Positions 3,093-64,000 of a DNA stretch of 64,000 nt are shown piece by piece; the stretch's first letter is position 1; every line of letters starts with the position of its first letter. Origin of the DNA: a virus. Lineage: Duplodnaviria > Caudoviricetes. Position numbers and translations under genes: made by a program. The notes below the pieces were generated by a model. It was not told the origin of the DNA. It searched no databases and saw nothing but the letters and a program-made list of their open reading frames with translations. Where the stretch lies: the IMG/VR virus record IMGVR_UViG_2596583697_000001, positions 50,484-114,483 of that record; one strand, given 5' to 3'.

Positions 3093-6000
3093 ATGAGAAA
3101 ATACAACACATCTAATTGTCTGCCAAGTATAGCGAAAATGAAAAAGTCATTTCCTGAATTAGTAGAGAACAAAAAGGATTTTACTAACAACAAAAAATAT
3201 CTGTACGATTTTTCAATGCTTAATGGCAAAATTCCGACTGACATTATGGAATCGATTTACGACCAGGCCATGAAACAAACTGGCATTATAGATTGTTTTG
3301 CTGTATGTGACGCTGTATCAAGCACAGAGGACAAGAAGTATTTTGTCTATCTGGACTTTATCCCATACAAGGTAATAAACAAAAATACAGGCAGAACAAG
3401 TTATTGTGTCATGGAACTATCGGCTATACGAATATCAGTCTATGACATGAATGTATACGGCTATGCAGAGAATATCCAAGCGGATTATATAGAAGCTGGT
3501 CACTGGAAAGAGAGCACTTTGACATATATCAACGATATAGAAGTGGCATAGATTATCCATTTCATAGGGAGGTAAGGATATGAAACCTGTTGATTATTTG
3601 ATAACTGATTTACAGAGAATGAAGGATAAAAGAGAAAATATCTGTAAGGAACTTGGTAATGGATACGATTGGATGCTAGTTGAAAGTTTAATATCCATTG
3701 AAAATAAAATTAAACAGACAGCCGAGAGGATCGACAAAATGCAAAACCTATAAAACGATTATTTCATGATAGGGAGATAAAAAGATATGAAAAGAAAATG
3801 GGAAATAGTACATGATTGCGATGGAGACAACGGAGAACCTACTTGCTGGGTTTTAGAAGTAAATCATAACGATTATGGAAAATTTATCTGGATAACGGAT
3901 TCTGCGTTAGGGTTTGATATTGAATACAAAAGTAAATACAGTAATGATATTACTCCTCTTATAACATGTAAAACCTTAACATCTGCAAAAAGATGGGTAT
4001 CAATAAATATAAGATGAAAACCGAATTTTAAGGAGGAAGTTGTTATGCACGGATATGACGTTTATTTCAAAGGTGGAATGAGAGTTTTTGTATCATCTAG
4101 CACCCCCAAAGAGGCCATTCAAAAGGCAAAAATTAAATTTCCCGGAATGGAGGTTATTGGACATAGTCTTAAATGTATAAAAACAAATATTGTTTAATGT
4201 AAATAATATCAGCAGAGTGGAACGGCTTACATAGCCGTTTTAATGCACATGGCAAAGCCATACGGTCACAAGTCCGTAAGCATTAAGGAATGGGGGATTA
4301 AACAATGAAAAATTACAAGGTAACTTTTGAGAGAAGCAATAAAACTATTGGATCAGATGTTTTTACAGCAAATTCCAGACAGGGAGCAGGACATGAATTT
4401 AAAGAATGTTATCGACATGATGTGTATAAAATTTTATCAATAGAGGAAGTCGAGGAACAATAAAATTCTTATTTCAAATTGAAAGGATAAAGAAAAATGA
4501 ACGATGTGGGATATGATACAAGTTTAAAATACAAGGGTTCATATGCTGAGATAAGCGTAAAAACTGCGACACAAGACGGATTAAAGAACTTAAAACCATA
4601 CTATGAGGGGGCGATAGCCTATCATACAAAAGAAAATAACAAAAGTCAAATCGCCTTCTTTTCAGAGGGATTGAATCTTATTAATAAAAGACTAAATTAA
4701 CAATGAATCTATTCATTCTTTTGAAAATATGGAGGCAAAAACATATGAGTTACGATATACAGTTGGTTAATAAAGAAGATGTAAGGATAGGTGACACAAT
4801 TCTATGTAATGATGGAAATATAAGAACAGTGTGCCGAAATAACATTACTAGCGGATTTATGGGGTCGTGTTTATTTGGCGAGTCCTATCGGTTAGGGCAA
4901 GAAAGAGTTAAAAAAATAGTCAATCTGAAATATTAATAAATTTTATTTCCAGTCATAAGCCATTAGAGAATATAACTCTAGTGGCTTTTATAGTGGGTAT
5001 AACACGAAGAAAAAACATATGGAGGATATTATCATGAGAAAAGAATATACAGTAGAACAGATGGCAGGTGCAAGATGGTTTTATACATTCACAGAACCTA
5101 ATGCAAAAGGTGAAAAGATAGTGATGGAGCTAAGCAAATGTATTAATCCAGGTGGAAGTAATGCAATTCCTGTATTATGGAATAAACATGGATATATGGA
5201 TAGGGTTCTGGAAACATATTGGAGTATTCAAACTTATGTGACAGATACAGAGGGATATTGTTATGGAATGTATAATCCTCAAGAGAAACCAGGAAGATAT
5301 GAAATAAATTTCGATTGGATATTTGAAGCAACAGAAGAGAACAAAGAAAAGTTAATTGATGAAGTTTATAAATTGGCATCGTCAGCATATGGAGAAACAG
5401 CAACAGAGAGGAAGCACAGAAAAATTAAAGAATTTGCAGCCAAGGAAAAAGTTGAACTTTTAACAGAGATTCCGGAAGGGTGGAAGAAATTAAAAGGATC
5501 GATGACTGCACCTTACGGATCTGTGTGGGTATCTAACAAGGAACCATTTAAAAGTGGAAACAGAAAAACAGCATTATTGTTAGTTTGTTAAACTATTTTA
5601 GAAAATAGAGGTATTAAAGATGAAAAAATATACGAGAAAAAATTTTTCTGCATATTTGTCTGATTGTGACTATAAAGGTTACAGAACATATGCATGGATT
5701 GAAAATTTAACTATAAAATATTTTTATCTGCAAACAGTAGAGGACTACACAAAGACCTTTGAGACTCTTGCAGATTTGTATGATTATATTGATAACAAGT
5801 AAAAAGTATGGGAAGGCGGTAAAAAATATGAAAACTATAAAGGTGATTTTTGAAAAAGGTAACAGCTTCACAACAAGAATTAATGGGACAGAAGACGAAA
5901 TAAAAGCTTATTATGTTGGGAAGGTCTTTAACTTGGGTTGTGTGGAAGACGATTTACAGAAAGTAATAGGGGTTGAATTTTTATGAATTGCGGATGAAAA

Positions 6001-9000
6001 GTAAGTTTCATTTAGAATGGAGGATTAAAAATCATGACAAACGCATTATTTAATCGTGGGGAAAATGGTCATATGTCAATGCGTGATATGGATCTTGAAT
6101 GGTTGCGTAAACAGGCATATTTAAAATGTAGTTTTGAAAATGCTGATATTAAAAAGATTGATAAAATCGTCAACGGAATTAAGGCAGGTAAAATTAATAA
6201 AAGCAATTTATTTGACGAAGTGCGGAAGCTAACGAAGAATGTAACAAGTGATCATTCTATAGGAAGATGGCAGTGCATTACAGAGTGGTTCAATGATACG
6301 GAATGGTTTTGAAGGTAATGTTTACGAATCAGAATAAAATGCACGTTTAATGGTGAGTAATCGGAGAATATATATCTGGTTGCTTTTTTTATGTTCAAAA
6401 CCAGGAAGGGGATTGTAATGGACGAAAACATAATCATATGCCCAAATTGTAGCCGAAAATTAAGTATCATCAGAAAAGATGGGAATATAAGGAAAGAAAT
6501 TCATTGTAGATGCCGTGATAAATATGGGCACACGATGATCCAATGGGTATCTGGAGCAGGCTATCATTACTTTAGCAATGAAATGGAATGGATTCCAGTT
6601 ATACACGGGTAAATAAAATACATGATTTATTAGGAGGTAAAAATATATGAGTTATTATAGGAATTGGAAATGCTACAGCTATGGCTTATGTGGAAGTGAT
6701 AGAGAATATGATTATCAGGAGCTTAAAGAATACTTTGAAATTGATGGTAGTGACGTTGCATATTGTAAAACAAATATTTTGGAATATAAAGCTGGCAACT
6801 ATTATAGCATTCTCGCCGGTGGACAACTCAATGGTAAAGAATACGGATTTGTTATACTGGAAAGATGAAAGGAAAATTTCAAGGGAGGATATATTTTGAA
6901 TAGAAATAAAATTACTTTATTCGGTGAAAAGAGCAATGTAGTTATTAAAAAGACTGGCTTATTATCCTATGGAGTATATCAAAATGGAACGCTTCTTGCA
7001 AAGTCACGAAAATTCAAGGCATACCAAAATGATATTTTAAGGATTATGTATACTGGAATTGCTTTCGGAACAGGTGATTATATTCTTGAAGCAGAAAGTA
7101 TGAGCGGGATAAAAGAAATTTATAGATGGAAAGGTTAAGATAAAAGATTTTAATGGAGGTCTTATTATGAGTTTAATTGAATATAGGAGTAATGATATTG
7201 ATATGAGCGCATTTAAAGAAGATTTAAAATATTGGAGTAATTGTTGTGGGGAATTACATCACCATGGAGAATATGATATAGAAGAATTTGATTTGCCACA
7301 AGAGTTAAAGCGGGCATATACAGACTTATGGACTGAAGGTGGTGGCTCTTTATGCTATCTTGTTGAATACAAAGGCTTATATGGAATTGCCTTAATTAAT
7401 GAATTTGATGATTGGTTCGCAGAAGATGAGGGAGTGTCCATGGATTCTCTTTATGAACAAATGAAACAGAAGGCCAATTCTTTAATTGATAATGATTTAT
7501 TTAAAGAATCTCAAATTATATGTTCCGAATATGCTGGTTTCAATGAATGTCATGAATTAATAGTTATTCTGCCTACTTATATAGAAGAAGATATATTTAA
7601 TAGAATCATGGATTATCTTGATAAAACAGTTTATGGATTGAAATTGTAATTTAATTAGAAAGGGTAAAGGCAAAAAGCATGATTAAAATGATTGTAAGAT
7701 ATAGAGTAATGAGCGAAGTCAGAAGATTAATTAATATTGCAAAAGAAAAGGTTACTAGTGGAGGAGATGAATACGAATGGTTTGATTATGTAAATAAGTA
7801 CCTTGATTTTATCTGGAATGCTAAATTAATCAATAAGAAAAATATAGATATTTTGTGGAGAGAATTGCAAGATGCAACAAATGAAAAATAGATTTTATAA
7901 GCATATAAAAATATGGAGGTAAAAGGGTGAGTGAAAATATGAAGTTTGGAGAGAACACATATAAACAAATGATATATTTATGCAGACAAGATAAATTAAC
8001 ACCTGATGGAAAAGTTAGATTCAACGTAGGGTTGAAATGGCAACCTATAAATGAAAATTGGAAACCTTATTGTATAAGTGACTTACCCAATACTGTTGAT
8101 AATGGAGAGGATGCAAAACAGTTTACAGGAAGACAAAGGAAAAATGCTATTATATATGCAAAAGAATTGAAGCAAAAATACAATTTAGAAATAGACGAAT
8201 CTCTTATATAGAAAATACAATAGAAAACAGGTTTCATAGGTAGCGAAAGGAGAATAGAGAATAAATGAAAAAGTCAAAATTAGTATTGGAACTTAGCTGT
8301 TGCGTTGGTTACGGTTATATGGCATATATTGAGTTTGGGGCGAAGGAAGCAGTTGTAGACTTTCTGAAAAATTTCTGTATGTGGGGAGGAAGCACAAAAA
8401 CATTTAAAAGCTATAACATGTACGAATTATCAGAGGATGTGATGAAATTTATGACTACTAGATCGTTTAAATCGTGGTTGCTAAAGAACAATGTTGAGTT
8501 GCTTACAAAATACGAAGTAGAATATGATAGAGTCTTAAACGAAGTATTTTTACAAGCGTGACAATAGAAAGCACATTTTATAAACAGAGGAGAGAAAAAT
8601 ATAATGAAAAACGTATTTACGATTTATTTGATTATTAGCATCATAGCATTAAATATACTATTACTAAACATTAAAAAAGACAATGCCAGGCTAAAGACAA
8701 TACTCAAGGAAGCACATTATGCAACGCTTGCAGTAATATCATTTACTCCAATTATACACTTAATTGTCGTTGCATTATCGATTTTTAATAAAGGATCTAT
8801 TGATATTTATGAAATGACTAAGACATGGAAAGAGAGGGAATCATGATAAGCACTGTCAAAGATTATAACAACTCATACAGTTATCAACGAATGCACAAGA
8901 GAAAACAACGTAGAAATTTCATAATATTGAACCGAATTATAGGAAGCATTTTACCGATGCTTTCTATTTTTTCACTCTTTATGATGTCTGATCAGTGTGG

Positions 9001-10376: not shown

Positions 10377-11354
10377 CTGCCAACGAAAGAGATATTTTAA
10401 CTATAAAAAGTAAAAGGAGAATGTGAAATGAAGTTAATAGAAAGAGTTTATGGTTTTGTTATCTATGAATTAGACGAAGTAATGATAAATAAATTTGGAG
10501 GAAAATACTTCCTGTCACAAGCTGAAATATCTGAATATTGGTTGAAAAATCATTCGGTGGAAGAAACCATTTCCGAATTAAAATCATATAATTACGAGGG
10601 TATTTTTCAAACAAGGTTGGAGGCTTATTATCAAGCCAATTTAGTAGAAATGGAACATCAATATAATTTACTTAAAAATAGCATTAAGGAGACTTGTGAG
10701 AAAATGAATAATAGAACTGACGTTAACTGGTATGAAATATCTGAATAAAAACAAGATTATATTGTGAAGATGGAGGTTGAGAAGATGAGAAGCGAAGACA
10801 GATTACAAAGTGTTTATATAGGAGTTGTTGCCGGGATTAAATGTTGTAAAGAAGGGGAAAGGTCAGATTATAACAAAGGGAAGATGGCAGCATATAGCGA
10901 GGTACTTAGCGCAATGGGTATAAATATTGAAGATGTATGCGTTTTGATGGCAAGTGTATGAGCCAATAAATCCACAATTTCAAGCAAGAAAAGGAGAGTA
11001 AACGTGAAAATTAAAGAGAATTTAACAGTAAGAGAAGCAGAGGACTATGCAAAAGAGAACGGATATAATAAGGTGGCATTTAGCCTTAAGATTAACGATA
11101 AATATGTCGTAAGTGGAAAATATTTAGACGCATACTATGATCTCATTGAGATCCCAGTTCTCGGAAGCGGATTTACAAGATTTGCCGATTTATGCAAAGA
11201 ACATGGGGAGCGAAATTTATCTATTGATATTATAGACGAAGAAGAACTTAAAAATAGTATATCTTTTGATTTTATTATCAGGGGTAAATTTGACAGTATT
11301 CCAGAAGAATACAAAATTGCTGAATAAAATCAGGATTTGAATGGAGGTAATATC

Positions 11355-12383
11355 ATGACATACCATGAACAAAATGATATCCAGAATATAAAAAAACTTA
11401 GAAGTATTATATCTGCATTGCCAGCTTATTGCGAAGACTTCTTTCGGGGAATCGAGCCAAGGACTTCCTCGAAGACTAGGATTGCTTATGTGGCCGATCT
11501 GAAGCTATTTTTTGATTATCTGATCAGAAGTGGTCAAGTAAAAGATATGGAGTCAATTACTCTTGATATGCTTTCAGGCTTGAAAATCATTGATTTTGAA
11601 AAGTATATGGAGTGGATAAAATGTTGGACTGATGATTCAGGTAAAGAATATACCAACGGAGAAAAAGCTATTGCAAGAAAGTTGTCTACGTTGAAAGCCT
11701 TCTACAAGTATTTTCAGCAGAACGAAAGGATAGCCACTAATTCAGTATCACTTGTGCAACCACCGAAACTACGTGATAAGGAGATTATCAGGCTTGATAA
11801 CGACGAAATGAAAGCATTTATACAGGCGGTAGAAACTGGAGGTAATTTAGAAGGAAGGGAACGTGCCTTCTTTGAAATAACACAGAAGCGAGACTTTGCA
11901 ATAATCATGTTGATTCTTACCACAGGAGTCCGTGTTTCTGAATGTGTTGGTTTGGATATTAATGACGTAGATTTCAAAAACAGTGGAATTAGAATCTATC
12001 GGAAAGGAGGAAAAGAAGAAACAGTATATTTCAGTGATGACACCAGAGAGGCGTTGGAACCTTATTTAGAAGAAAGAAAACAGACCGAGGCAATTAAAGG
12101 GCATGAGAATGCTCTGTTTTTATCTCTACAGAACAAACGAATATCAACCAGAAACGTAGAGGATTTGATTCCTAAGTACGCAAGGTTGGCAGGAATCCAG
12201 AAGAAGGTTACGCCTCATACACTACGTAGAAGCTATGGAACGGCCTTATATAACGCTACAGGGGACATTTACCTAGTTGCTGGTACATTGGGCCATGCAG
12301 ATGTGAACACTGCGAAACGGCACTATGTGGCATTGGAAGACGAGAAAAAAAGAGAAAATAGAAATGCTGTTAGGCTGAGATGA
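11355..12383 (+). CDS. XerC-like tyrosine recombinase
   Basis: RD..I.L.LTTGVRVSE, RKGGK, TPHTLRRSYGT, LGH....TAKRHY catalytic set intact; RBS GGAGGT before ATG 11355. Confidence 0.92.
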   Translation: MTYHEQNDIQNIKKLRSIISALPAYCEDFFRGIEPRTSSKTRIAYVADLKLFFDYLIRSGQVKDMESITLDMLSGLKIIDFEKYMEWIKCWTDDSGKEYTNGEKAIARKLSTLKAFYKYFQQNERIATNSVSLVQPPKLRDKEIIRLDNDEMKAFIQAVETGGNLEGRERAFFEITQKRDFAIIMLILTTGVRVSECVGLDINDVDFKNSGIRIYRKGGKEETVYFSDDTREALEPYLEERKQTEAIKGHENALFLSLQNKRISTRNVEDLIPKYARLAGIQKKVTPHTLRRSYGTALYNATGDIYLVAGTLGHADVNTAKRHYVALEDEKKRENRNAVRLR

Positions 12384-22426: not shown

Positions 22427-24518
22427 TAAAGAGCAAGTCAATGAATACGATTTCAAAAACATAGGAGTAAAAATTAAAACAAAATCATTATTTGGTGAGG
22501 AGAAAAAGAAAATGGGAAAAGAATTAACATATATAAATAATTACGGATTATGGAAAGTTACTACGGAAGGTGACTGTGAAGGTAAATCAACTAGAGATTT
22601 AGGAATACATAAAGGCTATATTGACGAAATTGCTTTTGCTTTAGCAGATAAGTGTTTCTATTCTCTAAATTTTAAATATTTATTTGAATCAGAATACAAC
22701 AAAATATCAACTCCAAAACGTAGTGAGGTAAGCGTTACGTTAGATATTGACTCCGGAACGTGGGATTTATCAAGCGAAGAACGGGTAAAGTGGGCGAAAA
22801 AATTACTATCAGGAAGAGATGTTGATGTATCAAAAGGACAGTACTATGCAAGTTTTGTAATTAAAACGAGCAAAAAGACTGTAGAGGATATTAGAAGAGA
22901 GGCTTTCAATAAACTCACAAAAGAAGAAATTGATGCATTGGGAATAAGATCAAAGGATAATTTGATAAGGAGAAAAATATGCTTAGTAAAGAAAATATAA
23001 TGGAAATTATTGAAGATCATCAGAAAGAAATTGATGAGTTGAAAACCGAATTAAAAAATACATCTAGTAAGATAGTCATCGGAGCCATTGAGAACAGGTT
23101 GTCATTCTTGTACGATAACCAATATAGATACAAGATGCAAGCACGAGCGTGGGGATTGATTGAGCTAGATTAAATTAGGATTTCCCGGAACAGGAGGAAC
23201 TATGAAGAAAGGAATCAAAGAAAGAGATATTAGGGATTTTGAAAAGCAATGCCTTAAGCTTAAGAACGTAATGGATAAGATAGTGGATTATGCTCCAGAA
23301 GCTAATTTATATGTAGACGGTGCTGGCAGTATACATCTAATGTGTGATAGTAAGCATGAAGGATTTGGCGGAAGCCCTTCGCAAGATAGCATTGTCGCGA
23401 GTGTTTCAGTAGGATACATTGATTGTGGTGATTGGTGATTTAAACTGAAATTTGAACTTGATTAAAGGTGCATTTTATGAGGAAAGGAGAAAATTAAACA
23501 ATGGAATTAAAAGAGTTTAAAGGTAGACATTTATTAAGTGGAGTGGAATATACTCAGCACCAAGAAAGAGAGGGTGAAGAGGATTGGGAAGATTACGGAA
23601 ATGATTGTCTAATTTGTATTGATGGAATTAATTATTTGATGATTGAAGACTTAAATGATGGGTATAGAAGCAGTATGTTAGATCCGGAAGTTACCGACAG
23701 AGAAATCAAGAATAGTTTTAAGGATCAGGAAGTGTTCATTAAACATCGGACTTATGGTTCTTACAGTGGGGAAGCTGCTGATGTAATGGAAATTTATTCG
23801 ATGTCAGGTGATTTGATTTTGGAGGTTGGAACCGAGAATATCGGAGATTATTATCCTGGAGCAATATTTGGCTATTATCCTGAAAATATGGACATCAATA
23901 AGATAGGATAAAATCGGAATTTTCTAAAGAAAGGAGCTGTGTTAATGGATGTTGTGGTTCAGTCAGATTATCAGGACATATATAGAATTACTGGCGGTGT
24001 CTTACTTGTAGTAAATAAGTTTAAACAAAAGGAAATTGATGGAGTGAAATATCCAAGAGTGAGTTACTGTAGAAGGAATAACTCAAGATTATATAAACAA
24101 GGCTGCCAGAATCATTTAAAGATATTGACAAAAGAATACATAAAAGAGGAATCCTGTTTCGGGCCAGCATGGAGTGTGCCATTAGGAACAGTATGCTATT
24201 GCGACATACCAATTGAAATTGCACCTAAAGATGAATGGGAGTATCAGATCAAAACAAGTGGAGAGTCATTTTCCGGAAGAGATGAAAATATGATTGACTT
24301 TTTGAGAGAAATCGAATCATTAATTAAAAAGACAGATAGAGGAAGTTTGGTCGCCGACTCTACCTGTCAGTAGGCAACACTCAGCGGATAGAATATAACA
24401 TTTCTGTTGGCTTATTTCAAGCCAGTTATCCATGTATAAAATTATAATGAAACTCCGCTTTCTTCAGGTTTATAAAAACAAATAGTAGATACACACAATA
24501 CGTTGAGGAGATGATTAA

Positions 24519-25478
24519 ATACTACAAATATTAGAATTATTCGGGGGAATTGGTTCTCCTAGAGTTGCGTTGAGAAACCTTGGTGTGCCAACAAAATCAA
24601 TAGATTACGTAGAAATAGATGAAAAGGCAGTCAGAAGCTACAATGCAATGTTTGAAAATGAATTGAAGTATATAACTCAGTCTGTCGTTGGTTGGAATTT
24701 AAGGCCGGATATTTTGATTCATGGCAGTCCATGTCAACAAGTCTCAATTTGTGGTTGGATAAGCCCAGTTGGAAGCCCAAAAGGAGCCGATGAGGGGTCA
24801 GGAACTGAATCTTCGCTTATGTGGGAAACAATACATATCATTCAGCAAATGGGTAAATGGAAGCCCAAAGTTGTTATTTGGGAAAATGTTAAAGGTGTTA
24901 GGTATAAGGGAATGAAAGATAATTTCCAAAGATACCTATACGAAATGGAACAGTTGGGATACACAAATAACCATAAATGTTTAGATGCAAGAGACTTTGG
25001 AATTCCACAAGCGAGAGAAAGAGTGTTTACGATCTCATGCTTAAATGGCGAAAAGTTTGATTTTGATAAATTAAAACATGTTCCAATGAGACCTTTGAGC
25101 GACTTTCTGCAAGAAAAAGTAAGCGATGCTTATAAAGTTACACAGCCAAGTATACTTAGTGCAATTGGTAGAACCAAAACAGCAAAACGTGCAACCGTTA
25201 TTAGTGAATATGCATACACAATTACTGAGAGACAGGATAGGTGTCCTGCTCAAATAATTGATTGTGGTAATGGAGACTACCGATTTTTAACAGAACTGGA
25301 ATGTTGGAGATTATTTGGATATTCTGATGAAGATTATTATGCAGCCGAAAGAGCTAATCCTAAAAAGAAATCAGCCATTGTAAACAGAGCCTTATATAAA
25401 CAGTCGGGGAATAGCATTGTGGTGCCTATTTTCGAAGAAATACTTAGAGTACTACTAAGAGATTACATGAAGTATTGA
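24519..25478 (+). CDS. DNA cytosine-5 methyltransferase (ATA start inferred)
   Basis: ELFGGIG (motif I, upstream of the ORF-track start), HGSPCQ, WENV, PQARERVF, LYKQSGNSI. Confidence 0.9.
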   Translation: MLQILELFGGIGSPRVALRNLGVPTKSIDYVEIDEKAVRSYNAMFENELKYITQSVVGWNLRPDILIHGSPCQQVSICGWISPVGSPKGADEGSGTESSLMWETIHIIQQMGKWKPKVVIWENVKGVRYKGMKDNFQRYLYEMEQLGYTNNHKCLDARDFGIPQARERVFTISCLNGEKFDFDKLKHVPMRPLSDFLQEKVSDAYKVTQPSILSAIGRTKTAKRATVISEYAYTITERQDRCPAQIIDCGNGDYRFLTELECWRLFGYSDEDYYAAERANPKKKSAIVNRALYKQSGNSIVVPIFEEILRVLLRDYMKY

Positions 25479-27166: not shown

Positions 27167-27687
27167 GATAAAATGAAAATTTCAAGAAATTAATTTAGGA
27201 GAGCAAAAATAAATGGAAAGAAATCATAGATTAACAGTTAAAGAAATGATAGAGGAATTATCTAAATGTAATCCTGACGCAGAGGTCATTGCAGAGAGTC
27301 CATATAGGGATCAATTTAGAATATATACCGTAACTGAAAGTGATTGCAAGTCAGTCATTTGGCTTGAGGCTTAGTAATTGAAGGTATGATTTTAAGGAGG
27401 GGTTATGGAGAAAGCAAAGGTTTTTAATACACCAAAAGAAATTGTTGAATACTATTTTTCTAATAGGATTAGTAATGCTTGTGGCGGAGGAGTTATCGGT
27501 TGCCCATATGAACAATGTTATTCCGGATATATAAATTTACTTGAAAATGAGTGCGCTAAGTATTGTAAGGGTTTTGAAGCTGGTAAGACTCCGGACGAGA
27601 TATGTGGAGAATGTTGGAATCAGCAGCTAAAGTAACTTTAAATTGACGAATTCAAAGGAGGGATAATAGAGGAACAGTAATAATTTA

Positions 27688-27731
27688 ACCCACATAAATA
27701 GCGCTTATTAGAAAAAGGCATTTATGTGGGT
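27688..27731 (-). terminator. Hairpin downstream of the DUF4397 gene
   Basis: ACCCACATAAAT...ATTTATGTGGGT 12-bp inverted repeat. Confidence 0.55.
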
Positions 27732-27747
27732 CATACAATCCATTTTA

Positions 27748-28413
27748 TTAGTATTCTCCATCTGCAGCGATAACTGCTTCTAATGGTGGTGTATCTCCAA
27801 CAAGACCAACCGCAAAAATGCTATAAACTGCTCCGGGCATAAGATATACATCTGGTATTGTTAATACAACCTGATTGCTTCCAGTCGGTCTGACTTGAAG
27901 GGTATAAGTTCCTGGTTTTACAGCAATGTAGTCAGTAAATTGTGTATAGGATACATCTTCAAAGAGTTTCGTTCCGTTTGTCAGTGTAATGTCAACTGCG
28001 GGAGCGTTTGGAGACAGATGCACAAACCGTACATATGAAGTATTTCTCATTCCCATTGGCATATTAGGCATAAACATTTCAGGGAAAGGCATTAAACTTA
28101 TATTCGCTAATTCTCCAGCAGCCGCTATCGTAAATGCACTGTCTTGTGGAATGGTAACATTTGTATCAATGACAGCAGTTGTTTGATTTCCTGCTGGATA
28201 CACCTGAATCTGATAATTACCGGGCATAATTGGAATGTAATTAGTTAACTGTTTATAGGAAAGCCCTTCTGCTATTATATTATTATTTGCATATATGTCC
28301 ACCGCTGGAGCATCAGGAGAGGCGTGAAGAATTCGTACGAAAGACATCTGACGTGCTTGCTGCATGGAATAGTAAGAGTTACCTTGATGGGTATACATAT
28401 ACATAATTCTCAA
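27748..28413 (-). CDS. DUF4397 domain protein (host-like, two repeats)
   Basis: VRILHASPDAPAVDIY and VRFVHLSPNAPAVDIT repeats. Confidence 0.85.
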   Translation of the reverse strand: MRIMYMYTHQGNSYYSMQQARQMSFVRILHASPDAPAVDIYANNNIIAEGLSYKQLTNYIPIMPGNYQIQVYPAGNQTTAVIDTNVTIPQDSAFTIAAAGELANISLMPFPEMFMPNMPMGMRNTSYVRFVHLSPNAPAVDITLTNGTKLFEDVSYTQFTDYIAVKPGTYTLQVRPTGSNQVVLTIPDVYLMPGAVYSIFAVGLVGDTPPLEAVIAADGEY

Positions 28414-28724
28414 CCTTAAGGGTTTTGATATATACTATGAAATGCGATTTGTATTGTTACTATTAATACAAAGTATTTTAAAATTTTTTTAACAGGCCGT
28501 CATGCGTTTATTATATAAGTTTGATGAAATATCAACTACGAGTGATTTAGCGGAATTTATTATTAATAAGTCATTTTAGAGAGTGTGATTAAAAATGAAT
28601 CAAGCAACCATTATAAAAGAAACAGTTAAAAAGATGTTCTCAAAGAGTTAATTAAAGACCTACAAGAAGAACGTATTTATCTACTTGCCACGGTTACAGA
28701 AGGTTAGTTGATATATAGATGAAA

Positions 28725-29013
28725 GTAACGTTTCCAAGTCATTACTAATATTAATCCGGTAAAATTTATGTATATTGCCTTGTTTGTCAAAGCCTTTAAT
28801 TATTTGTCTGTCTAACCAAAAATAACCCTCTTTTAATTCTGATAATTTTTCACCAGTGGTATCTCGTAGGAACGTGAGATATTCGTTAAATATTGGATTC
28901 ACTCAATACCTGAGTGTAATGTACATTACTTTTTAACTAGTATTATCTTTCCCTTTCTTTATTTTTGACGTTTGCAACCGTCAGTTTATTTTATAAGTGG
29001 GATGAAACGTTAC
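28725..29013. other. Inverted 289-bp segment carrying the RBS and first 59 codons of the PAPS-reductase gene
   Basis: Bounded by GTAACGTTTC (28725-28734) and GAAACGTTAC (29004-29013); re-inversion fuses ORF 28902(-) ..NDLETL in frame to HLSKAKDY.. of the + ORF. Confidence 0.85.
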
Positions 29014-30137
29014 ATTTAAGTAAAGCAAAAGATTATCGGGATATTAACGATATTGAATTAGCAAGTTGGAATGACCTTATTGAGTTAAATAAGGAACACT
29101 TAGAAAACATAGAATCAGATTCTTTAAATTTAATCAAAGATAAAATGGAGAAATATAAAGGACATGATTCGCTAATTCCTGTGTCAATGGGAAAAGATTC
29201 TATGGTTGTATCTCATCTTGTAAGATCTTTATATCCCAACACTAAGGCAATTTTCAATAATACATCACTTGATTGTGCCGACACATATAAAATGGTTAAA
29301 CATTTTCCTAGCTGTGAAATTATGAATCCCGACAAAGGATTCTATCAATATGTCGCATCAGACCATATGATACCAACAAGATTTTCGAGATTCTGTTGTA
29401 GAATTTTCAAAGTTGGGGTTATGGTTTCAAAATTAGGCCACGAACACCCATATCTCATGTGGATGGGCATGAGAAACGAAGAATCTGCTACAAGAAGTGG
29501 CTATACAGATGAATGGATTAATGAATCAGAATGGGGGAATACGAAATGGCAAGGTATTCTTCCTATTAGAAAGTGGACAGAGTTAGACATTTGGCTATAT
29601 ACATTATGGAGAAATATTGATATCAATCCTAAATATAAAAAGGGATATAGTAGATGTGGCTGCCATATAGCTTGCCCATATTATAACAAATCCACATGGA
29701 CATTGGATAAGTATTGGTATTCAAAATCGTATGATAGATGGAGAAATATATTAGAGAAAGATTTTATTGAAAATAAGAAATGGATTGTGATGAATTGTAC
29801 AATTAGTGAATATTTAACACAAGCTTGGAATGGTGGAATTTATAGAGACGAACCCACAAAAGAAGTTATAGAAGAATTCGCTCAATATAACAATCTTCAA
29901 TACGATATTGCCGAAAAGTATTTCAATAAATATTGTGAGAATGAATGTAAAACTCAATCTGGAAAAATCAAGAAAATTAAGGACAAACAGGTACTGGGAA
30001 TGAACATGAAACTACATGGGATAAATACTAATAAGTTTTATTGCAAATCGTGTTTAATGAAAATGCATTATATTGACAATGAACAATGGGATAAGTATAT
30101 AGATGATTTTAAAAAATCAGGATGTGACTTGTTCTAA
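28965..30137 (+). CDS. PAPS reductase-family protein (5' end removed by the inversion; 433 aa if restored)
   Basis: VSMGKDS, RFCCRIFK, GMRNEES..R, PI..WTELDIW, Y.KGYSRCGCH.ACP. Confidence 0.85.
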   Translation: MTFATVSLFYKWDETLHLSKAKDYRDINDIELASWNDLIELNKEHLENIESDSLNLIKDKMEKYKGHDSLIPVSMGKDSMVVSHLVRSLYPNTKAIFNNTSLDCADTYKMVKHFPSCEIMNPDKGFYQYVASDHMIPTRFSRFCCRIFKVGVMVSKLGHEHPYLMWMGMRNEESATRSGYTDEWINESEWGNTKWQGILPIRKWTELDIWLYTLWRNIDINPKYKKGYSRCGCHIACPYYNKSTWTLDKYWYSKSYDRWRNILEKDFIENKKWIVMNCTISEYLTQAWNGGIYRDEPTKEVIEEFAQYNNLQYDIAEKYFNKYCENECKTQSGKIKKIKDKQVLGMNMKLHGINTNKFYCKSCLMKMHYIDNEQWDKYIDDFKKSGCDLF

Positions 30138-30921
30138 TGAAATAATACTTTGATTGGAGAATAAAATGGCGACAGAAAAACAAGATATGTCTAATTGCTG
30201 TAAATGATGGGAGGAAAGATGGGTGATTTAGGCTGGGTTATAATAATTGCAATTGCTGCAGTTGTGGCAGTAATTGAAAAGATATGTGATACATACAAGG
30301 AAACTCATAAAAAGGACAAAGATAAATAACATTAAAATCAACATTTAATGGGGAAATACGAAATTTTCAAAGAAGACTATATGAAAAATAGGAGGATTAA
30401 AAGATGAGATATATTTCAGATGATAACAAGGTATTTAATTCAGAACAGGAGTGTTTAAATCATGAAAAGGCTATTACTTCCGAAAGAGCAAAGCGTGAAA
30501 AATTACTTGCTGAAAAAAATAAGCGCAGTGATGAAGTAAGGAAAATAGGCAATGATTTTGTAAAACTACATAAGAAGTTCGTAGATGACTACGGTGAGGA
30601 GATTGCTTTTGATAACGACTTGGAGTCACTGGCTTCCTGGTACAGTACGCTTCCATTTTTATTTAGGTCAGGTAGATTTGGTATATAAATACGGGATAAA
30701 AGAACAGTTTGATGGAAGGAGGGAATAAATTTGTTTAGCGGAATCTTAGGTGGGTTATTTTTTGCATTTATACTTGCATTTTTCGGTGCAGACAGTGCAT
30801 TTTTGAAAGCAGTAGAGCCATTTATAAATGTAAAGTTAACCACTACTCATTGGTACATAATGTTTGCAATTATTGGTGGGATTGCAGGTTTATTTGGTAG
30901 AGACAACTAAAGATATATTTT

Positions 30922-61970: not shown

Positions 61971-62633
61971 ATGAGAAAATTAATAACAGCAGGCATGACA
62001 TCATTCTGTCTAGCCTTTACGATGCCCATGGCAACATGGGCGAATAATATAGAAGAAACCGTAACAACGGCACAGGAAAATGTAACTACGTCAACTAAAT
62101 ATTGCAATGCAAATAATGTTAATATCAGAAAAGAACCAAATATAGAATCAGAGGTTTTAGGCCAAGCCTTTTTAAATACAAGTTTTGATGTGATAAGCGA
62201 AGAAGATGGATGGAGTAAATTTTTCGGAGAAGATGATTCATATAGTGGATATGGGTATATCAAGTCAAAATATTTATCAGACAAAGAGATTACGTACACA
62301 GAAGAAGAGTTGTATGTGTTGGCTCATTTAATTGCTGGAGAAGCACAACCGTGTGATGATATGGAACAAAGATATGTGGCTTCCGTAGTGTTGAATAGAG
62401 TTAAGCACCCTGGATTTTGCAATACTATTAAAGAGGTTGTATTTGAGCCAGGGCAGTACGATTGTATACCTAAAGGTACATATTATAGGGAACCGACTGA
62501 GAGAAACTGGGCTAACGCCAAATGGGTGTTAGAAAACGGTAGTGTATTCCCTGACTACGTTATTTGGCAATCACGAGGAAAGCAGGGGAAGGGAGTATAC
62601 CTTAAAACTAAAGACCATTACTATTGTTATTGA
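61971..62633 (+). CDS. Secreted SH3 + SleB/Hydrolase_2-type cell wall hydrolase
   Basis: Signal peptide, VNIRKEPN SH3, LAHLIAGEA, VASVVLNRV, TIKEVV..PGQY. Confidence 0.85.
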   Translation: MRKLITAGMTSFCLAFTMPMATWANNIEETVTTAQENVTTSTKYCNANNVNIRKEPNIESEVLGQAFLNTSFDVISEEDGWSKFFGEDDSYSGYGYIKSKYLSDKEITYTEEELYVLAHLIAGEAQPCDDMEQRYVASVVLNRVKHPGFCNTIKEVVFEPGQYDCIPKGTYYREPTERNWANAKWVLENGSVFPDYVIWQSRGKQGKGVYLKTKDHYYCY

Positions 62634-62641
62634 TATACAAT

Positions 62642-62666
62642 CCGTCCTTCGGGACGGTATTTTCTT
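62642..62666 (+). terminator. Intrinsic terminator
   Basis: CCGTCC-TTCG-GGACGG then TATTTTCTT. Confidence 0.75.
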
Positions 62667-62677
62667 ACAGATTGGAG

Positions 62678-64000
62678 ATGAAAGTATTTAGCAGAGAAGT
62701 TAGTGATTCACAGTTGTTGAATTATTTGTTGAAAAATAGTAATATAGATATCAACGATGTGCGAAACAGTATTGTTGATATGGAAAAACAAAAAATATTA
62801 GACTCTCATAAGTATGAAATCTGGCAAGGGAAGGATGGGTATTGGAGAACATATTTGCCAAAAGAGGATAAAAGGGTATTAGTTAAGAAAAAAACGTTGG
62901 AAAAAATTCATGAGAAAGTTGTAGAATTTTATCAACAGGAAAATGAAGCCAAGAGTATAGTCACATTTAAATTGGCATATGGCAGTTGGTTGCAATCCTA
63001 TTCCGTTAGATTCACAACCGAAAATACTCTTAATAAATATGCAACTGACTATGATAGGTATTTTAAAGATACTGATTTTGAAAAGTTAGACATAACTAAG
63101 ATTAATGAAGAAGTAATCACCGAGTTTATAATTACAATAGTTAAACAAAAGAAATTATGTCAAAAGGCTTGTAAAACATTGTGTGGCTATATCAGGAACA
63201 CTTTAAAAAGTGCAAGAATAAATAAATTTATAAATGATAATCCATTTGACAATCTTGAAACTAAAAACTTCTATCCTTATTGCACGAAAAAGGTTAAAAC
63301 AATTGAGGAAAGAACAATTTCAAATGAAGAATACAAATTACTATATGAAAAATTTGAAGAAGATCATTTGAATCAGCCAAATTATATCCCCACATATGCT
63401 GTGGAATTTGCTAGTCTAACCGGATTTAGAGTTAGTGAAATTGCAGCTTTAAAGTGGAGCGATATACAAAATGGAATGATCGTAGTTAATAAATCGGAAA
63501 AATACGTTAGAAACAAGAAAGAGTATTTTATTGGTGAAACAAAAAATGGGAAAACGAGATATATGCCAATAACCGAAGAAATAGCTAAACTTTTAATAAG
63601 GCTGAGAAAAGTTGAAGAAGAATATGGATATCTTAGTGAATTTATTTTTTCAAATGAGAACGGAAGAATTCATGCTCCGATAATATCTGATTGTGCCAGA
63701 AATAAGTGTATTCAAGTTGGGATTCCTAATAAGAGCATTCATGCATATAGACGTACATTCTCATCAAAATTAAAATGTAACGGTATATCATCAACAATAG
63801 TAAGTTCGTTAATGGGACACACGGAAGATGTGAACGAACAATACTATACTTATGATGTAAGTAGTATGCATGAAAAACAGGTATTCGTTCAAATGATTAC
63901 TAAAGAAATAGCTATGACAAGGTTTGATAACAACTCTAATAAAAAGGTAATCAATAGTAATCAATATGATCCGACTCATATGATGCTTGAAACCCTTTAA
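62678..64000 (+). CDS. Phage tyrosine integrase
   Basis: TGFRVSEIAALKW, TKNGK, SIHAYRRT, LMGHT..VNEQYY; stop at 63998-64000. Confidence 0.92.
   Translation: MKVFSREVSDSQLLNYLLKNSNIDINDVRNSIVDMEKQKILDSHKYEIWQGKDGYWRTYLPKEDKRVLVKKKTLEKIHEKVVEFYQQENEAKSIVTFKLAYGSWLQSYSVRFTTENTLNKYATDYDRYFKDTDFEKLDITKINEEVITEFIITIVKQKKLCQKACKTLCGYIRNTLKSARINKFINDNPFDNLETKNFYPYCTKKVKTIEERTISNEEYKLLYEKFEEDHLNQPNYIPTYAVEFASLTGFRVSEIAALKWSDIQNGMIVVNKSEKYVRNKKEYFIGETKNGKTRYMPITEEIAKLLIRLRKVEEEYGYLSEFIFSNENGRIHAPIISDCARNKCIQVGIPNKSIHAYRRTFSSKLKCNGISSTIVSSLMGHTEDVNEQYYTYDVSSMHEKQVFVQMITKEIAMTRFDNNSNKKVINSNQYDPTHMMLETL

What the first reader, a model, noticed from the sequence alone, without database searches (positions are those of the whole stretch)
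28718..29020. A 289-bp inversion with crossovers in two cassette sites switches off the PAPS-reductase gene
Seen: the left end reads GATGAAA-GTAACG-TTTCCAA and the right end reads GATGAAA-CGTTAC-ATTTAAG, so the two 6-bp spacers are exact reverse complements. Flipping 28725-29013 (i) restores a perfect palindromic site GATGAAA-GTAACG-TTTCATC, (ii) turns the RBS and the minus-strand ORF MNPIFNEYL..NDLETL onto the + strand, and (iii) joins it in frame to HLSKAKDY.., giving a 433-aa PAPS-reductase-family protein. Established: tyrosine recombinases invert DNA between inverted sites with identical overlap regions. Inference: this is a direct footprint showing the dispersed motif recombines. It is either an off-target event with a cryptic site inside the gene or an ON/OFF phase switch for a putative DNA-modification gene.
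Basis: partly seen in the sequence, partly recalled or inferred. Interest (0 to 1): 0.9.

Follow-up and report, generated by a model that had tools for sequence, protein, structure and literature searches.

The report
Flip switch on a phage gene
A large prophage of gut Clostridia keeps the start of a PAPS-reductase-like (possibly DNA-modifying) gene on a roughly 280-base piece of DNA that flips between two short inverted repeats; here it is in the OFF position, and related phages carry it both ways round.

Summary
Flipping 28725-29013 in silico gives a 433-aa ORF that matches database protein P0001 at 431 of 433 residues. A 92-93% identical prophage in a Lachnospiraceae isolate (L112) carries this flipped form naturally. 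The inversion is not a one-off. Of 26 related loci that have the inverted repeats, 12 are OFF. Of 30 that lack them, none is OFF. The gene tree needs at least 6 orientation changes, and identical gene bodies occur in both states. In an independent metagenome scan, 13 of 22 contigs were ON and 9 were OFF or OFF-like. The repeat is a variable 6-mer next to a constant TTTCA(T) arm, and the 6-mer changes at both ends together. This is therefore a conserved ON/OFF inverton (the "partial intergenic" type), here set to OFF. A tyrosine recombinase is likely, because the phage record has no serine recombinase, but which one is unresolved. The 11337-12383 enzyme is not conserved with the switch. The link to the dispersed "cassette site" is only partly supported. 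The left site is an exact motif instance at a mosaic junction, but the main switch-bearing clade has no such motif array. This scan has already found the same kind of switch on other DNA (e1-5865808, e1-5821089, e1-5947966).

The parts
28718..28737 (.). Left recombination site, read here as GATGAAA-GTAACG-TTTCCAA. The perfect inverted-repeat arm is 28725-28734 (GTAACGTTTC).
   Evidence: In the natural ON relative L112 the same site reads ATGAAA-GTAACG-TTTCATC.
28735..29003 (-). Interior of the invertible segment, currently reversed (OFF). It holds the leader, the RBS, the GTG start and the first 59 codons.
   Evidence: Blastn: L112 5709-6004 aligns to window 29016..28722 in reverse at 93% identity.
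28725..28902 (-). 5' coding piece: GTG start at 28902, then MNPIFNEYL..NDLETL (59 codons plus 1 nt). In the OFF state it runs on into a 73-aa ORF that ends at 28681.
   Evidence: In the AF2 model, residues 1-63 form a separate small alpha/beta domain with block-mean pLDDT of 82-92.
28903..29003 (-). Conserved leader with three hairpins on the sense strand: H3 at 28900-28916 (RBS in the loop, GTG in the stem), H2 at 28916-28929, and H1 at 28965-28984 (invariant loop GUUGCAAA).
   Evidence: Alignments A1 and A3. In H1, 4 of 6 pairs show changes on both sides, and 98.9% of all cells are paired against 93.0% in shuffles. The sense strand is the more stable. No Rfam family matched.
28965..28994 (+). 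Terminator-like hairpin plus T-run, the antisense face of H1. In the OFF state it points at the gene body.
   Evidence: This is a consensus match only. In the commonest lineage the antisense hairpin is weak, at -0.9 kcal/mol.
29001..29020 (.). Right recombination site inside the coding sequence, GATGAAA-CGTTAC-ATTTAAG. The perfect inverted-repeat arm is 29004-29013 (GAAACGTTAC).
29013..30137 (+). Decapitated gene body (codons 60-433 plus stop) of the PAPS-reductase-family protein. The 390-aa TTG ORF 28965-30137 is a by-product of the OFF state.
   Evidence: PF01507 scores 82.8 bits against a cut-off of 22.5. PADLOC BrxP gives 1.6e-33. Foldseek finds the APS/PAPS reductase fold.
27644..28733 (-). 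Block carrying the minus-strand DUF4397 gene (27748-28413). Its right end lies inside the left site.
   Evidence: Contigs of runs X1, X3 and X4 match the window with no differences up to 28733. Contigs of X1-X4 start matching at 27644. Beyond both points they continue with other sequence. DUF4397 scores 161.8 bits.
11337..12383 (+). It is not conserved with the switch.
62624..64000 (+). Tyrosine integrase at the end of the prophage record. The ORF runs off the window.

Best explanation
This is a programmed, reversible DNA inversion switch (an inverton of the 'partial intergenic' type) in a large temperate phage of gut Clostridia. A segment of about 270-290 bp carries the structured leader, the RBS, the GTG start and the first 59 codons (a separate small N-terminal domain) of a 433-aa PAPS-reductase-fold enzyme. 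It is flanked by short inverted repeats, one in the intergenic region upstream and one inside the coding sequence. Each repeat is a 6-bp spacer, identical at both ends of one phage but different between lineages, next to a constant inner arm TTTCA(T)/(A)TGAAA.

A site-specific recombinase, most likely a tyrosine recombinase, exchanges strands in the matched spacers and flips the segment. In the ON state the gene is whole. In the OFF state, as in this window, the body has no start, RBS or N-domain, so no full-length enzyme can be made.

Shown: the anatomy of the switch, the existence of both states among near-identical phages, the repeated switching, and the co-variation of the spacers.

Inferred: the recombinase class, and that the enzyme modifies DNA. 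The latter rests on its BrxP/DndC-like fold and its position beside two DNA methylase genes. If so, the switch would give the phage population two modification states.
For: (1) The flipped ORF matches P0001 at 431 of 433 residues and P0002 at 414 of 433.

(2) L112, a 92-93% identical prophage in a Lachnospiraceae isolate, is the natural ON form, with the predicted sites at both ends.

(3) Of 55 related viral loci, 52 hold both pieces: 43 are ON and 9 are OFF. When the 4 genome loci and the window are added, 12 of 26 repeat-bearing rows are OFF against 0 of 30 repeat-less rows (Fisher p = 1.7e-5). After removing duplicates the figures are 8 of 21 against 0 of 23 (p = 0.0011).

(4) The gene tree needs at least 6 changes of orientation. 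L014 (ON), L015 (OFF) and L024 (ON) have identical 1050-nt bodies, and L022 (OFF) and L050 (ON) differ by about 0.001.

(5) In the relatives the outside flanks stay fixed while the inside is swapped, exactly at the repeats.

(6) Four spacer variants (GTAACG, CCAATC, CAACGC and the L005 type) are each matched at both ends, while TTTCA/TGAAA stays constant.

(7) In an independent collection, 22 metagenome contigs carry the junction of the CCAATC lineage: 13 are ON, 8 are OFF and 1 is OFF-like.

(8) G000 has no Resolvase-family gene, nor do 39 of the 43 related records. G000 has 3 tyrosine recombinases, and 37 of the 43 related records have at least one.
Against: No reads show both orientations within one clonal population. 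The only runs found hold contigs, and none of them covers 28734-29500.

No single recombinase family is shared by all 16 repeat-bearing genomes examined. No recombinase gene was seen in the ORF listings around the switch in the window, L014 or L015. The enzyme may therefore be host-encoded or of another class.

No sigma-70-type promoter was found on the sense strand of the segment, so how orientation affects transcription is unknown.

The window's repeat is only 10 bp and is not above chance by itself.

The window copy has I396 where 39 of 39 aligned relatives have R. This copy could therefore be decaying rather than simply switched off.
Confidence: 0.85

Rival explanations
1. The inversion is a by-product of a phage gene-cassette exchange system. 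The dispersed ATRAAA-N6-TTTYAT sites at gene junctions are recombination sites. The PAPS-reductase gene happens to contain a half-site with the same spacer as the junction site upstream. Recurrent flipping is therefore collateral and not a selected regulatory switch.
For: The left site in the ON state is an exact motif instance (L112 5706-5723, 0 mismatches). The motif is enriched in G000, with 8 copies against a control of 1. Of 42 near-matches, 16 are intergenic, while only 20% of the genome is non-coding. Homology with the X-run contigs ends at 28733, inside the site. Homology with L112 starts at the site.
Against: The intragenic half-site and its matched spacer are kept across lineages whose spacers differ, which points to selection. 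The main switch-bearing clade has the motif only at background level, 0-4 copies against a control of 0-4. Motif-rich phages G032, G034 and G037 (19, 14 and 11 copies) have no repeat at this gene and are all ON.
Confidence: 0.12
2. The switch is real but is driven by a serine invertase or another host-encoded recombinase, not by a phage tyrosine recombinase.
For: No phage tyrosine-recombinase family is common to all 16 repeat-bearing genomes examined. Some repeat-less genomes (G005, G016, G019, G034) also carry the F1 family.
Against: The same switch occurs in prophages of different host genera (Lachnospiraceae sp., Lactonifactor, Eubacterium segne), which favours a phage-borne enzyme. No Resolvase domain was found in G000 or in 39 of the 43 related records, including every record with an OFF locus. 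A matched 6-bp spacer beside a conserved arm is typical of tyrosine recombinase core sites (established knowledge). The repeat-less L031-L039 lineage has no internal tyrosine recombinase.
Confidence: 0.2
3. This was a one-off illegitimate or off-target inversion that killed the gene in this phage, leaving a pseudogene.
For: The repeat is only 10 bp and not above chance. An invariant R396 is replaced by I in the window copy.
Against: The same inversion occurs at the same position in diverged lineages with different repeat sequences. The tree needs at least 6 orientation changes, and identical gene bodies are found in both states. Both sites are intact in the window.
Confidence: 0.04
4. The inversion is an assembly artefact.
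For: No read-level support was available.
Against: Repeats of 10-15 bp are shorter than assembler k-mers. OFF forms appear in independent assemblies, including isolate genomes (L113, L114) and 9 of 22 metagenome contigs built by different pipelines.
Confidence: 0.02

Closest known systems
Partial intergenic invertons, also called gene-altering programmed inversions (Chanin et al., PMC10028968, passages read; Milman et al. 2023, PMC9881135, passages read)
   Same: One inverted repeat lies in intergenic DNA and the other inside a gene. Flipping changes the gene product. Both orientations coexist in nature.
   Different: Most of the described cases swap alternative gene ends (shufflon-like; HsdS, Type II R-M, tail fibres) and are longer. 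This one is a plain ON/OFF decapitation of about 280 bp, on a phage PAPS-reductase-fold gene. Neither paper's main text contains 'PAPS' or 'phosphoadenosine'. Their supplements could not be seen.
fimS switch of E. coli, driven by the FimB/FimE tyrosine recombinases (recalled, not from a call)
   Same: A small invertible element (about 300 bp) flanked by short inverted repeats (about 9 bp) gives ON/OFF expression. Tyrosine recombinase chemistry is the likely mechanism here too.
   Different: fimS carries only a promoter, and its recombinase genes lie next to it. Here the segment carries the leader and the 5' coding region, and the nearest recombinase gene is about 17 kb away. NCBIfam 'tyrosine-type DNA invertase' models score 58 and 53 bits against cut-offs of 222 and 221 for the 11337-12383 protein. 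They give no hit at E <= 0.001 for the second candidate, F1.
RecV-dependent switches of Clostridioides difficile, cwpV and flgB (recalled; an flg ON/OFF paper, PMC13464465, was seen only as a search listing)
   Same: The hosts are Clostridia. One distant tyrosine recombinase can serve small invertible leaders. The effect may act after transcription starts, because the hairpins in the leader change with orientation.
   Different: Those switches lie wholly in the 5' UTR of chromosomal genes. This one includes coding sequence and sits in a prophage. No RecV orthologue was tested here.
Phage Mu G segment (Gin) and phage P1 C segment (Cin) (recalled; inversions of phage tail genes are mentioned in PMC9881135)
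   Same: A phage-borne programmed inversion creates two kinds of progeny.
   Different: Those systems use serine invertases and swap tail-fibre ends of about 3-4 kb to change host range. Here G000 has no Resolvase-family gene and the target is an enzyme gene.
Shufflon sfx sites acted on by Rci (recalled; shufflons are mentioned)
   Same: The sites are asymmetric. One arm is conserved next to a crossover spacer and the other arm is poorly conserved, which favours inversion.
   Different: Shufflons have several segments and alternative C-termini. This locus has one segment and no alternative coding end.
Phase-variable DNA-modification genes (phasevarions) and the tightly controlled mom gene of phage Mu (recalled)
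   Same: If the enzyme modifies DNA, ON/OFF control of a modification gene would produce epigenetically mixed populations.
   Different: Those genes are switched by repeat slippage or by transcriptional control, not by inversion of the gene's 5' end. The substrate of the enzyme here is unknown.

Membership tests
Invertible DNA switch (inverton, partial intergenic type) | The segment is bounded by inverted repeats, one intergenic and one intragenic. | tested here: met
   The repeat is 10 bp in the window and 11-15 bp in relatives, at the same position.
Invertible DNA switch (inverton, partial intergenic type) | Both orientations occur among otherwise identical or near-identical genomes. | tested here: met
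   L014 and L024 (ON) have the same gene body as L015 (OFF). The tree needs at least 6 changes. The metagenome scan gave 13 ON and 9 OFF or OFF-like contigs.
Invertible DNA switch (inverton, partial intergenic type) | Both orientations coexist within one clonal population. | not testable with these tools
   Only contigs were served, and none covers 28734-29500.
Invertible DNA switch (inverton, partial intergenic type) | Orientation changes the gene product. | tested here: met
   ON gives an intact 433-aa ORF. OFF leaves a body without start, RBS or N-domain. This was tested at sequence level only.
Tyrosine-recombinase switch (fimS or RecV type) | A dedicated tyrosine recombinase is present and linked to the switch. 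| tested here: inconclusive
   G000 has 3 tyrosine recombinases, but none was seen in the ORF listings around the switch. No one family is shared by all 16 repeat-bearing genomes examined.
Serine-invertase system (Hin/Gin/Cin) | A Resolvase-family invertase gene is present. | tested here: not met
   PF00239 found 0 matches in G000 and matches in 4 of 43 related records, none of them a record with an OFF locus. A host-encoded enzyme was not tested.
Integron or attC cassette array | An integron integrase (IntI) and folded attC sites are present. | tested here: not met
   TIGR02249 scores 74.5 and 28.7 bits against a cut-off of 265, and PRK15417 scores 44.9 against 435. The sites are 16-18-bp palindromes, not attC-like.
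PAPS_reduct domain family (PF01507) | The domain scores above Pfam's gathering threshold. | tested here: met
   It scores 82.8 bits against 22.5. Foldseek's top hits are APS/PAPS reductases, with E = 5e-6 and TM about 0.65 on the target.
Assimilatory PAPS/APS reductase (CysH) | The equivalog model scores above its cut-off. | tested here: not met
   PRK02090 scores 53.4 bits against 154, and TIGR00434 scores 39.2 against 165.1.
BrxP (PAPS-reductase component of BREX type 4) | The protein matches the BrxP profile over its full length and sits in a BREX context. | tested here: not met
   The match (1.6e-33) covers only profile positions 74-360 of 779. No BREX genes were seen among the neighbours scanned. 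The relation is at domain level only.

The most novel reading that the evidence does not exclude
The flip is the within-molecule face of a phage-wide system of 'numbered' recombination sites. Gene junctions carry ATRAAA-N6-TTTYAT sites whose arms bind one recombinase and whose 6-bp spacers differ. Sites within one genome therefore cannot recombine with each other, but same-spacer sites in co-infecting phages can swap cassettes, in the way engineered heterospecific lox/FRT sites allow cassette exchange. Where a gene has acquired a half-site with the spacer of its own upstream junction, the same enzyme gives an ON/OFF switch. The site with spacer GTAACG would then be a three-way mosaic junction (window, L112, X-run contigs).
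Probability: 0.2. Interest if true: 0.8.

Novelty: new member of a known kind. Interest (0 to 1): 0.55.

Why it matters
Programmed inversions in phages are known mainly from tail-fibre host-range switches. This one is a conserved and frequently used ON/OFF flip on an enzyme gene that sits beside DNA methylase genes in large temperate phages of human-gut Clostridia. About 40% of natural copies are OFF.

If the enzyme modifies DNA, the switch would let one phage lineage release both modified and unmodified genomes. That would hedge between host defences that attack unmodified DNA and those that attack modified DNA.

The switch also gives a clean natural substrate (two short sites about 280 bp apart) for finding the recombinase. 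The same recombinase could then be tested on the junction motifs that are dispersed through some of these phages.

On the practical side, gene callers report the OFF state as a 390-aa protein with a spurious N-terminus (for example P0019 and P0023). This pollutes protein databases.

Tried and rejected
L112, found by the search for related loci, turned out to be the 299,609-bp contig that carries a P0002-like protein.

2. Read-level test. The one run search gave only Logan contigs with shares of 0.06-0.41. Laid on 27600-30200, they cover 27644-28733 and a few pieces after 29570, but not the switch. No joint was reported, so this says nothing for or against heterogeneity.

3. Idea: the OFF state redirects a promoter into the minus-strand DUF4397 gene. 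Rejected as a general mechanism, because L014, L015 and L112 have plus-strand genes on the left. The promoter-like hit at 28790-28763 is a consensus match at background frequency, 4 found against 4.7 expected.

4. Idea: hairpin H1 is an orientation-dependent terminator, as in cwpV. The window's plus strand does show a terminator-like site. However, in 17 of 22 distinct sequences the stem has a U-G pair that would be a C-A mismatch on the other strand. The antisense hairpin is only -0.9 kcal/mol in the commonest lineage. I do not adopt this idea.

5. Recombinase profiling gave no family that tracks the switch.

6. The DUF4397 protein has no close relative in viral contigs.

7. The flanks of the X-run contigs were not found in G000 or in any locus.

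8. A scan of viral contigs for the site itself gave 41 hits, all with unrelated flanks.

9. A metagenome scan for the window lineage's right junction gave 0 hits.

10. Rfam gave no match for the leader, nor for the different leaders of the repeat-less lineages.

11. I looked for a second switch on the C5 methylase gene in this window and found none. There is no inverted partner for the site at 24446, only a frame problem at the gene's 5' end.

12. Literature. Searches, and passages read, turned up no report of an inversion switch on a phage PAPS-reductase gene. Supplementary tables of PMC10028968 and PMC9881135 list many invertons and could not be seen.

13. The Fisher table used miscounted rows (28 and 28).
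Full report
**What is in the sequence.**
- The left end reads GATGAAA-GTAACG-TTTCCAA (28718-28737) and the right end reads GATGAAA-CGTTAC-ATTTAAG (29001-29020).
- The perfect inverted repeat is 10 bp: GTAACGTTTC at 28725-28734 and GAAACGTTAC at 29004-29013.
- Between the two repeats, on the minus strand, lie a GTG-start ORF (MNPIFNEYL..NDLETL, then 14 unrelated residues; 28902-28681) and about 100 nt of leader.
- To the right, a 390-aa plus-strand ORF (28965-30137) carries a PAPS_reduct domain scoring 82.8 bits against a cut-off of 22.5.
- Flipping 28725-29013 in a script gives GATGAAA-GTAACG-TTTCATC on the left and one 433-aa ORF.
- A 10-bp repeat of this type is not unusual on its own. The 114-kb record has 6 such pairs within 3 kb, against 5.2 +/- 2.5 in shuffles. 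The case rests on what follows.

**The predicted product and the predicted ON form both exist.**
- A search with the 390-aa ORF found a family of proteins of about 426-436 aa that begin MNPI[FY]NEY.
- P0001 matches the flipped ORF at 431 of 433 residues, and P0002 at 414 of 433. Both run straight through the junction ..NDLETLHLSKAKDY...
- P0019 and P0023 (390 aa, starting MAFATT...) look like gene calls made on OFF-state copies in other lineages.
- L112 is a contig of a Lachnospiraceae isolate with 92-93% nucleotide identity to the window. It is the natural ON form. Its positions 5709-6004 align to window 29016..28722 in reverse, and 5992-7139 align to window 29004-30151 forward. The overlap falls on the repeat.

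**It is a conserved switch that is used often.**
- The window lies in a 114,483-bp IMG/VR provirus record.
- Of 55 related viral loci (63-76% protein identity), 52 hold both pieces: 43 are ON and 9 are OFF. The other three are cut by contig ends.
- The OFF loci and many ON loci carry an 11-15-bp inverted repeat about 290 bp apart, at the same position as in the window. It is CCAATCTTTCA/TGAAAGATTGG in most, AAACGAAACTTTCAT in L005 and CAACGCTTTCA in L041.
- The outside flanks are constant and the inside is exactly swapped between ON and OFF.
- On a tree of 56 gene bodies, all 12 OFF rows fall among the 26 rows that have the repeat. None falls among the 30 rows without it (Fisher p = 1.7e-5).
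- After dropping identical rows the figures are 8 of 21 against 0 of 23 (p = 0.0011). One search's table was miscounted.
- At least 6 orientation changes are needed on the tree.
- L014 (ON), L015 (OFF) and L024 (ON) have identical bodies, and L022 (OFF) and L050 (ON) differ by about 0.001.
- L017 and L051 keep the leader and the right site but have lost the left repeat, and both are ON.
- In a separate collection, 22 metagenome contigs with the junction of the CCAATC lineage split into 13 ON, 8 OFF and 1 OFF-like.
- Isolate genomes of Lactonifactor and Eubacterium segne are OFF.
- An assembly artefact or a single accident cannot explain this pattern.

**Site architecture.**
- Across lineages the arm next to the segment's interior is constant: TTTCA(T) on the left and (A/T)TGAAA on the right.
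- The adjoining 6-mer varies between lineages but is always matched at both ends.
- The outer arms are weak (..AAA on the left, ATT.. on the right).
- A matched spacer beside a conserved arm is what tyrosine recombinase core sites look like (established knowledge). Repeats of 10-15 bp are also too short for homologous recombination.

**Which recombinase is unresolved.**
- G000 has three tyrosine recombinases and no Resolvase-family gene. Among the 43 related records, 37 have a tyrosine recombinase and 4 have a Resolvase. None of those 4 holds an OFF locus.
- A second enzyme, F1 (G000:16991-18040, minus strand), lies about 50-70 kb from the switch in many relatives. It was found in 20 of 44 records, but these include repeat-less G005, G016, G019 and G034.
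- I clustered the recombinases of 16 repeat-bearing genomes. They fall into two 'slots', each filled by alternative families: F1 or F2 in one, and F3, F4 or the XerS-like enzyme in the other. No family is common to all 16.
- The repeat-less L031-L039 lineage has no internal tyrosine recombinase. That fits a phage-borne enzyme, but it could equally reflect shared ancestry.

**The gene and its leader.**
- The protein has the APS/PAPS reductase fold (Foldseek E = 5e-6; AF2 mean pLDDT 76.8).
- It scores far below the CysH equivalog cut-offs and matches the BrxP profile over positions 74-360 of 779 (1.6e-33).
- A 2026 paper describes BrxP as the PAPS reductase of phosphorothioation-type BREX (passage read).
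- Residues 1-63, almost exactly the invertible coding piece, form a separate small domain in the model.
- The neighbours are a C5 and an N6/N4 DNA methylase gene. A DNA-modifying role is therefore plausible, but it is an inference.
- The leader is more conserved than most of the coding sequence and has three sense-strand hairpins.
- In H1 (invariant loop GUUGCAAA), 4 of 6 pairs show changes on both sides.
- H1 is more stable on the sense strand.
- The last hairpin holds the RBS in its loop and the GTG start in its stem.
- No Rfam family matches the leader.
- No sigma-70-type promoter was found on the sense strand, so transcription may enter from upstream.
- Whatever the promoter, the OFF state has no intact ORF.

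**The dispersed motif.**
- TGAAA-N6-TTTCA-like sites are enriched in the window, 32 against 9.8 expected.
- In G000, 16 of 42 such sites are intergenic, while 20% of the genome is non-coding.
- In L112 many sites sit at the stop codons of successive small genes.
- The ON-state left site is an exact instance of the motif.
- It is also a mosaic junction. Contigs of runs X1, X3 and X4 match the window without a difference up to 28733, inside the site, and then continue with other sequence.
- L112 shares the site but has different genes to its left.
- This supports the idea that the motif marks recombination points.
- However, the strict motif is at background level in the CCAATC clade, 0-4 copies against a control of 0-4.
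- It is abundant in phages whose PAPS-reductase gene has no repeat (G032 19, G034 14, G037 11).
- The switch therefore stands on its own, and its link to a cassette system remains a hypothesis.

**Comparison with what is known.**
- The element belongs to the 'partial intergenic' or 'gene-altering' class of programmed inversions (PMC10028968 and PMC9881135; passages read).
- In size and repeat length it works like fimS or the RecV switches (recalled).
- It differs in three ways: it is a plain ON/OFF decapitation, it sits in a prophage, and it targets a PAPS-reductase-fold gene.
- My literature searches and the passages read mention no such case. Supplements were closed.
- Earlier notes of this scan describe the same kind of switch on three other genomes. 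I reached the same reading from my own calls.

**Verdict.**
It is unproven on the cassette-site link and on the named recombinase.
- This is a new member of a known kind, of moderate interest.

Noticed in passing
window 24446-24602: The C5 DNA methylase gene looks broken at its 5' end. The RBS-ATG at 24511 stops after 7 codons. Motif I (ELFGGIGSP) lies in another frame that opens at 24519 with no start codon before it. The shift falls near a short A-run.
   Followed up: partly
window 27644-28733: The block with the only minus-strand gene here (DUF4397, 27748-28413) occurs with no differences in contigs of runs X1-X4, but with other sequence on both sides. A near-copy of the right-end spacer (GTAACT against GTAACG) sits just left of the block, at 27632-27637.
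   Followed up: partly
window 30094-30096 (codon 396 of the flipped ORF): The window copy has isoleucine where 39 of 39 aligned relatives, including P0001 and P0002, have an invariant arginine (HGRN). This may be a sign of decay in a copy held OFF.
   Followed up: no
L001, L003, L026, L031, L040 and others, about 170 nt upstream of the gene start: Lineages without the inverted repeats have quite different leaders of about 170 nt, conserved within each lineage and with TTG or ATG starts. No Rfam family matches those of L003 or L031.
   Followed up: partly
window 28900-28984 (minus strand); L014 5740-5826: The leader of the switch-bearing lineages has three conserved hairpins. H1 has an invariant loop GUUGCAAA and co-varying stems. 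H2 is a 14-bp palindrome around TGTACA. H3 holds the RBS in its loop and the GTG start in its stem. This may be an unrecognised regulatory RNA.
   Followed up: partly
G000 and related records G001-G043: The strict motif ATRAAA-N6-TTTYAT is abundant in some phages (G032 19, G034 14, G037 11, G005 9, G000 8, G003 7, G036 7) and at background level in others. In L112 the sites coincide with the stop codons of successive small genes.
   Followed up: partly
G000:16991-18040 (outside the window) and syntenic places in relatives: These phages carry two internal tyrosine-recombinase 'slots' besides the terminal integrase. Each slot is filled by alternative, unrelated-looking families in different genomes.
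   Followed up: partly
L014 and L015, 7304-8353: A second PAPS-reductase-like gene of 349 aa (SFSGGKDS motif) lies about 200 bp downstream of the switched gene in these relatives. G000 has only one PF01507 match.
   Followed up: no
proteins P0019 and P0023: Public protein collections hold 390-aa 'proteins' whose first 17-25 residues or so are translated from the antisense of the leader. These are OFF-state gene calls.
   Followed up: partly
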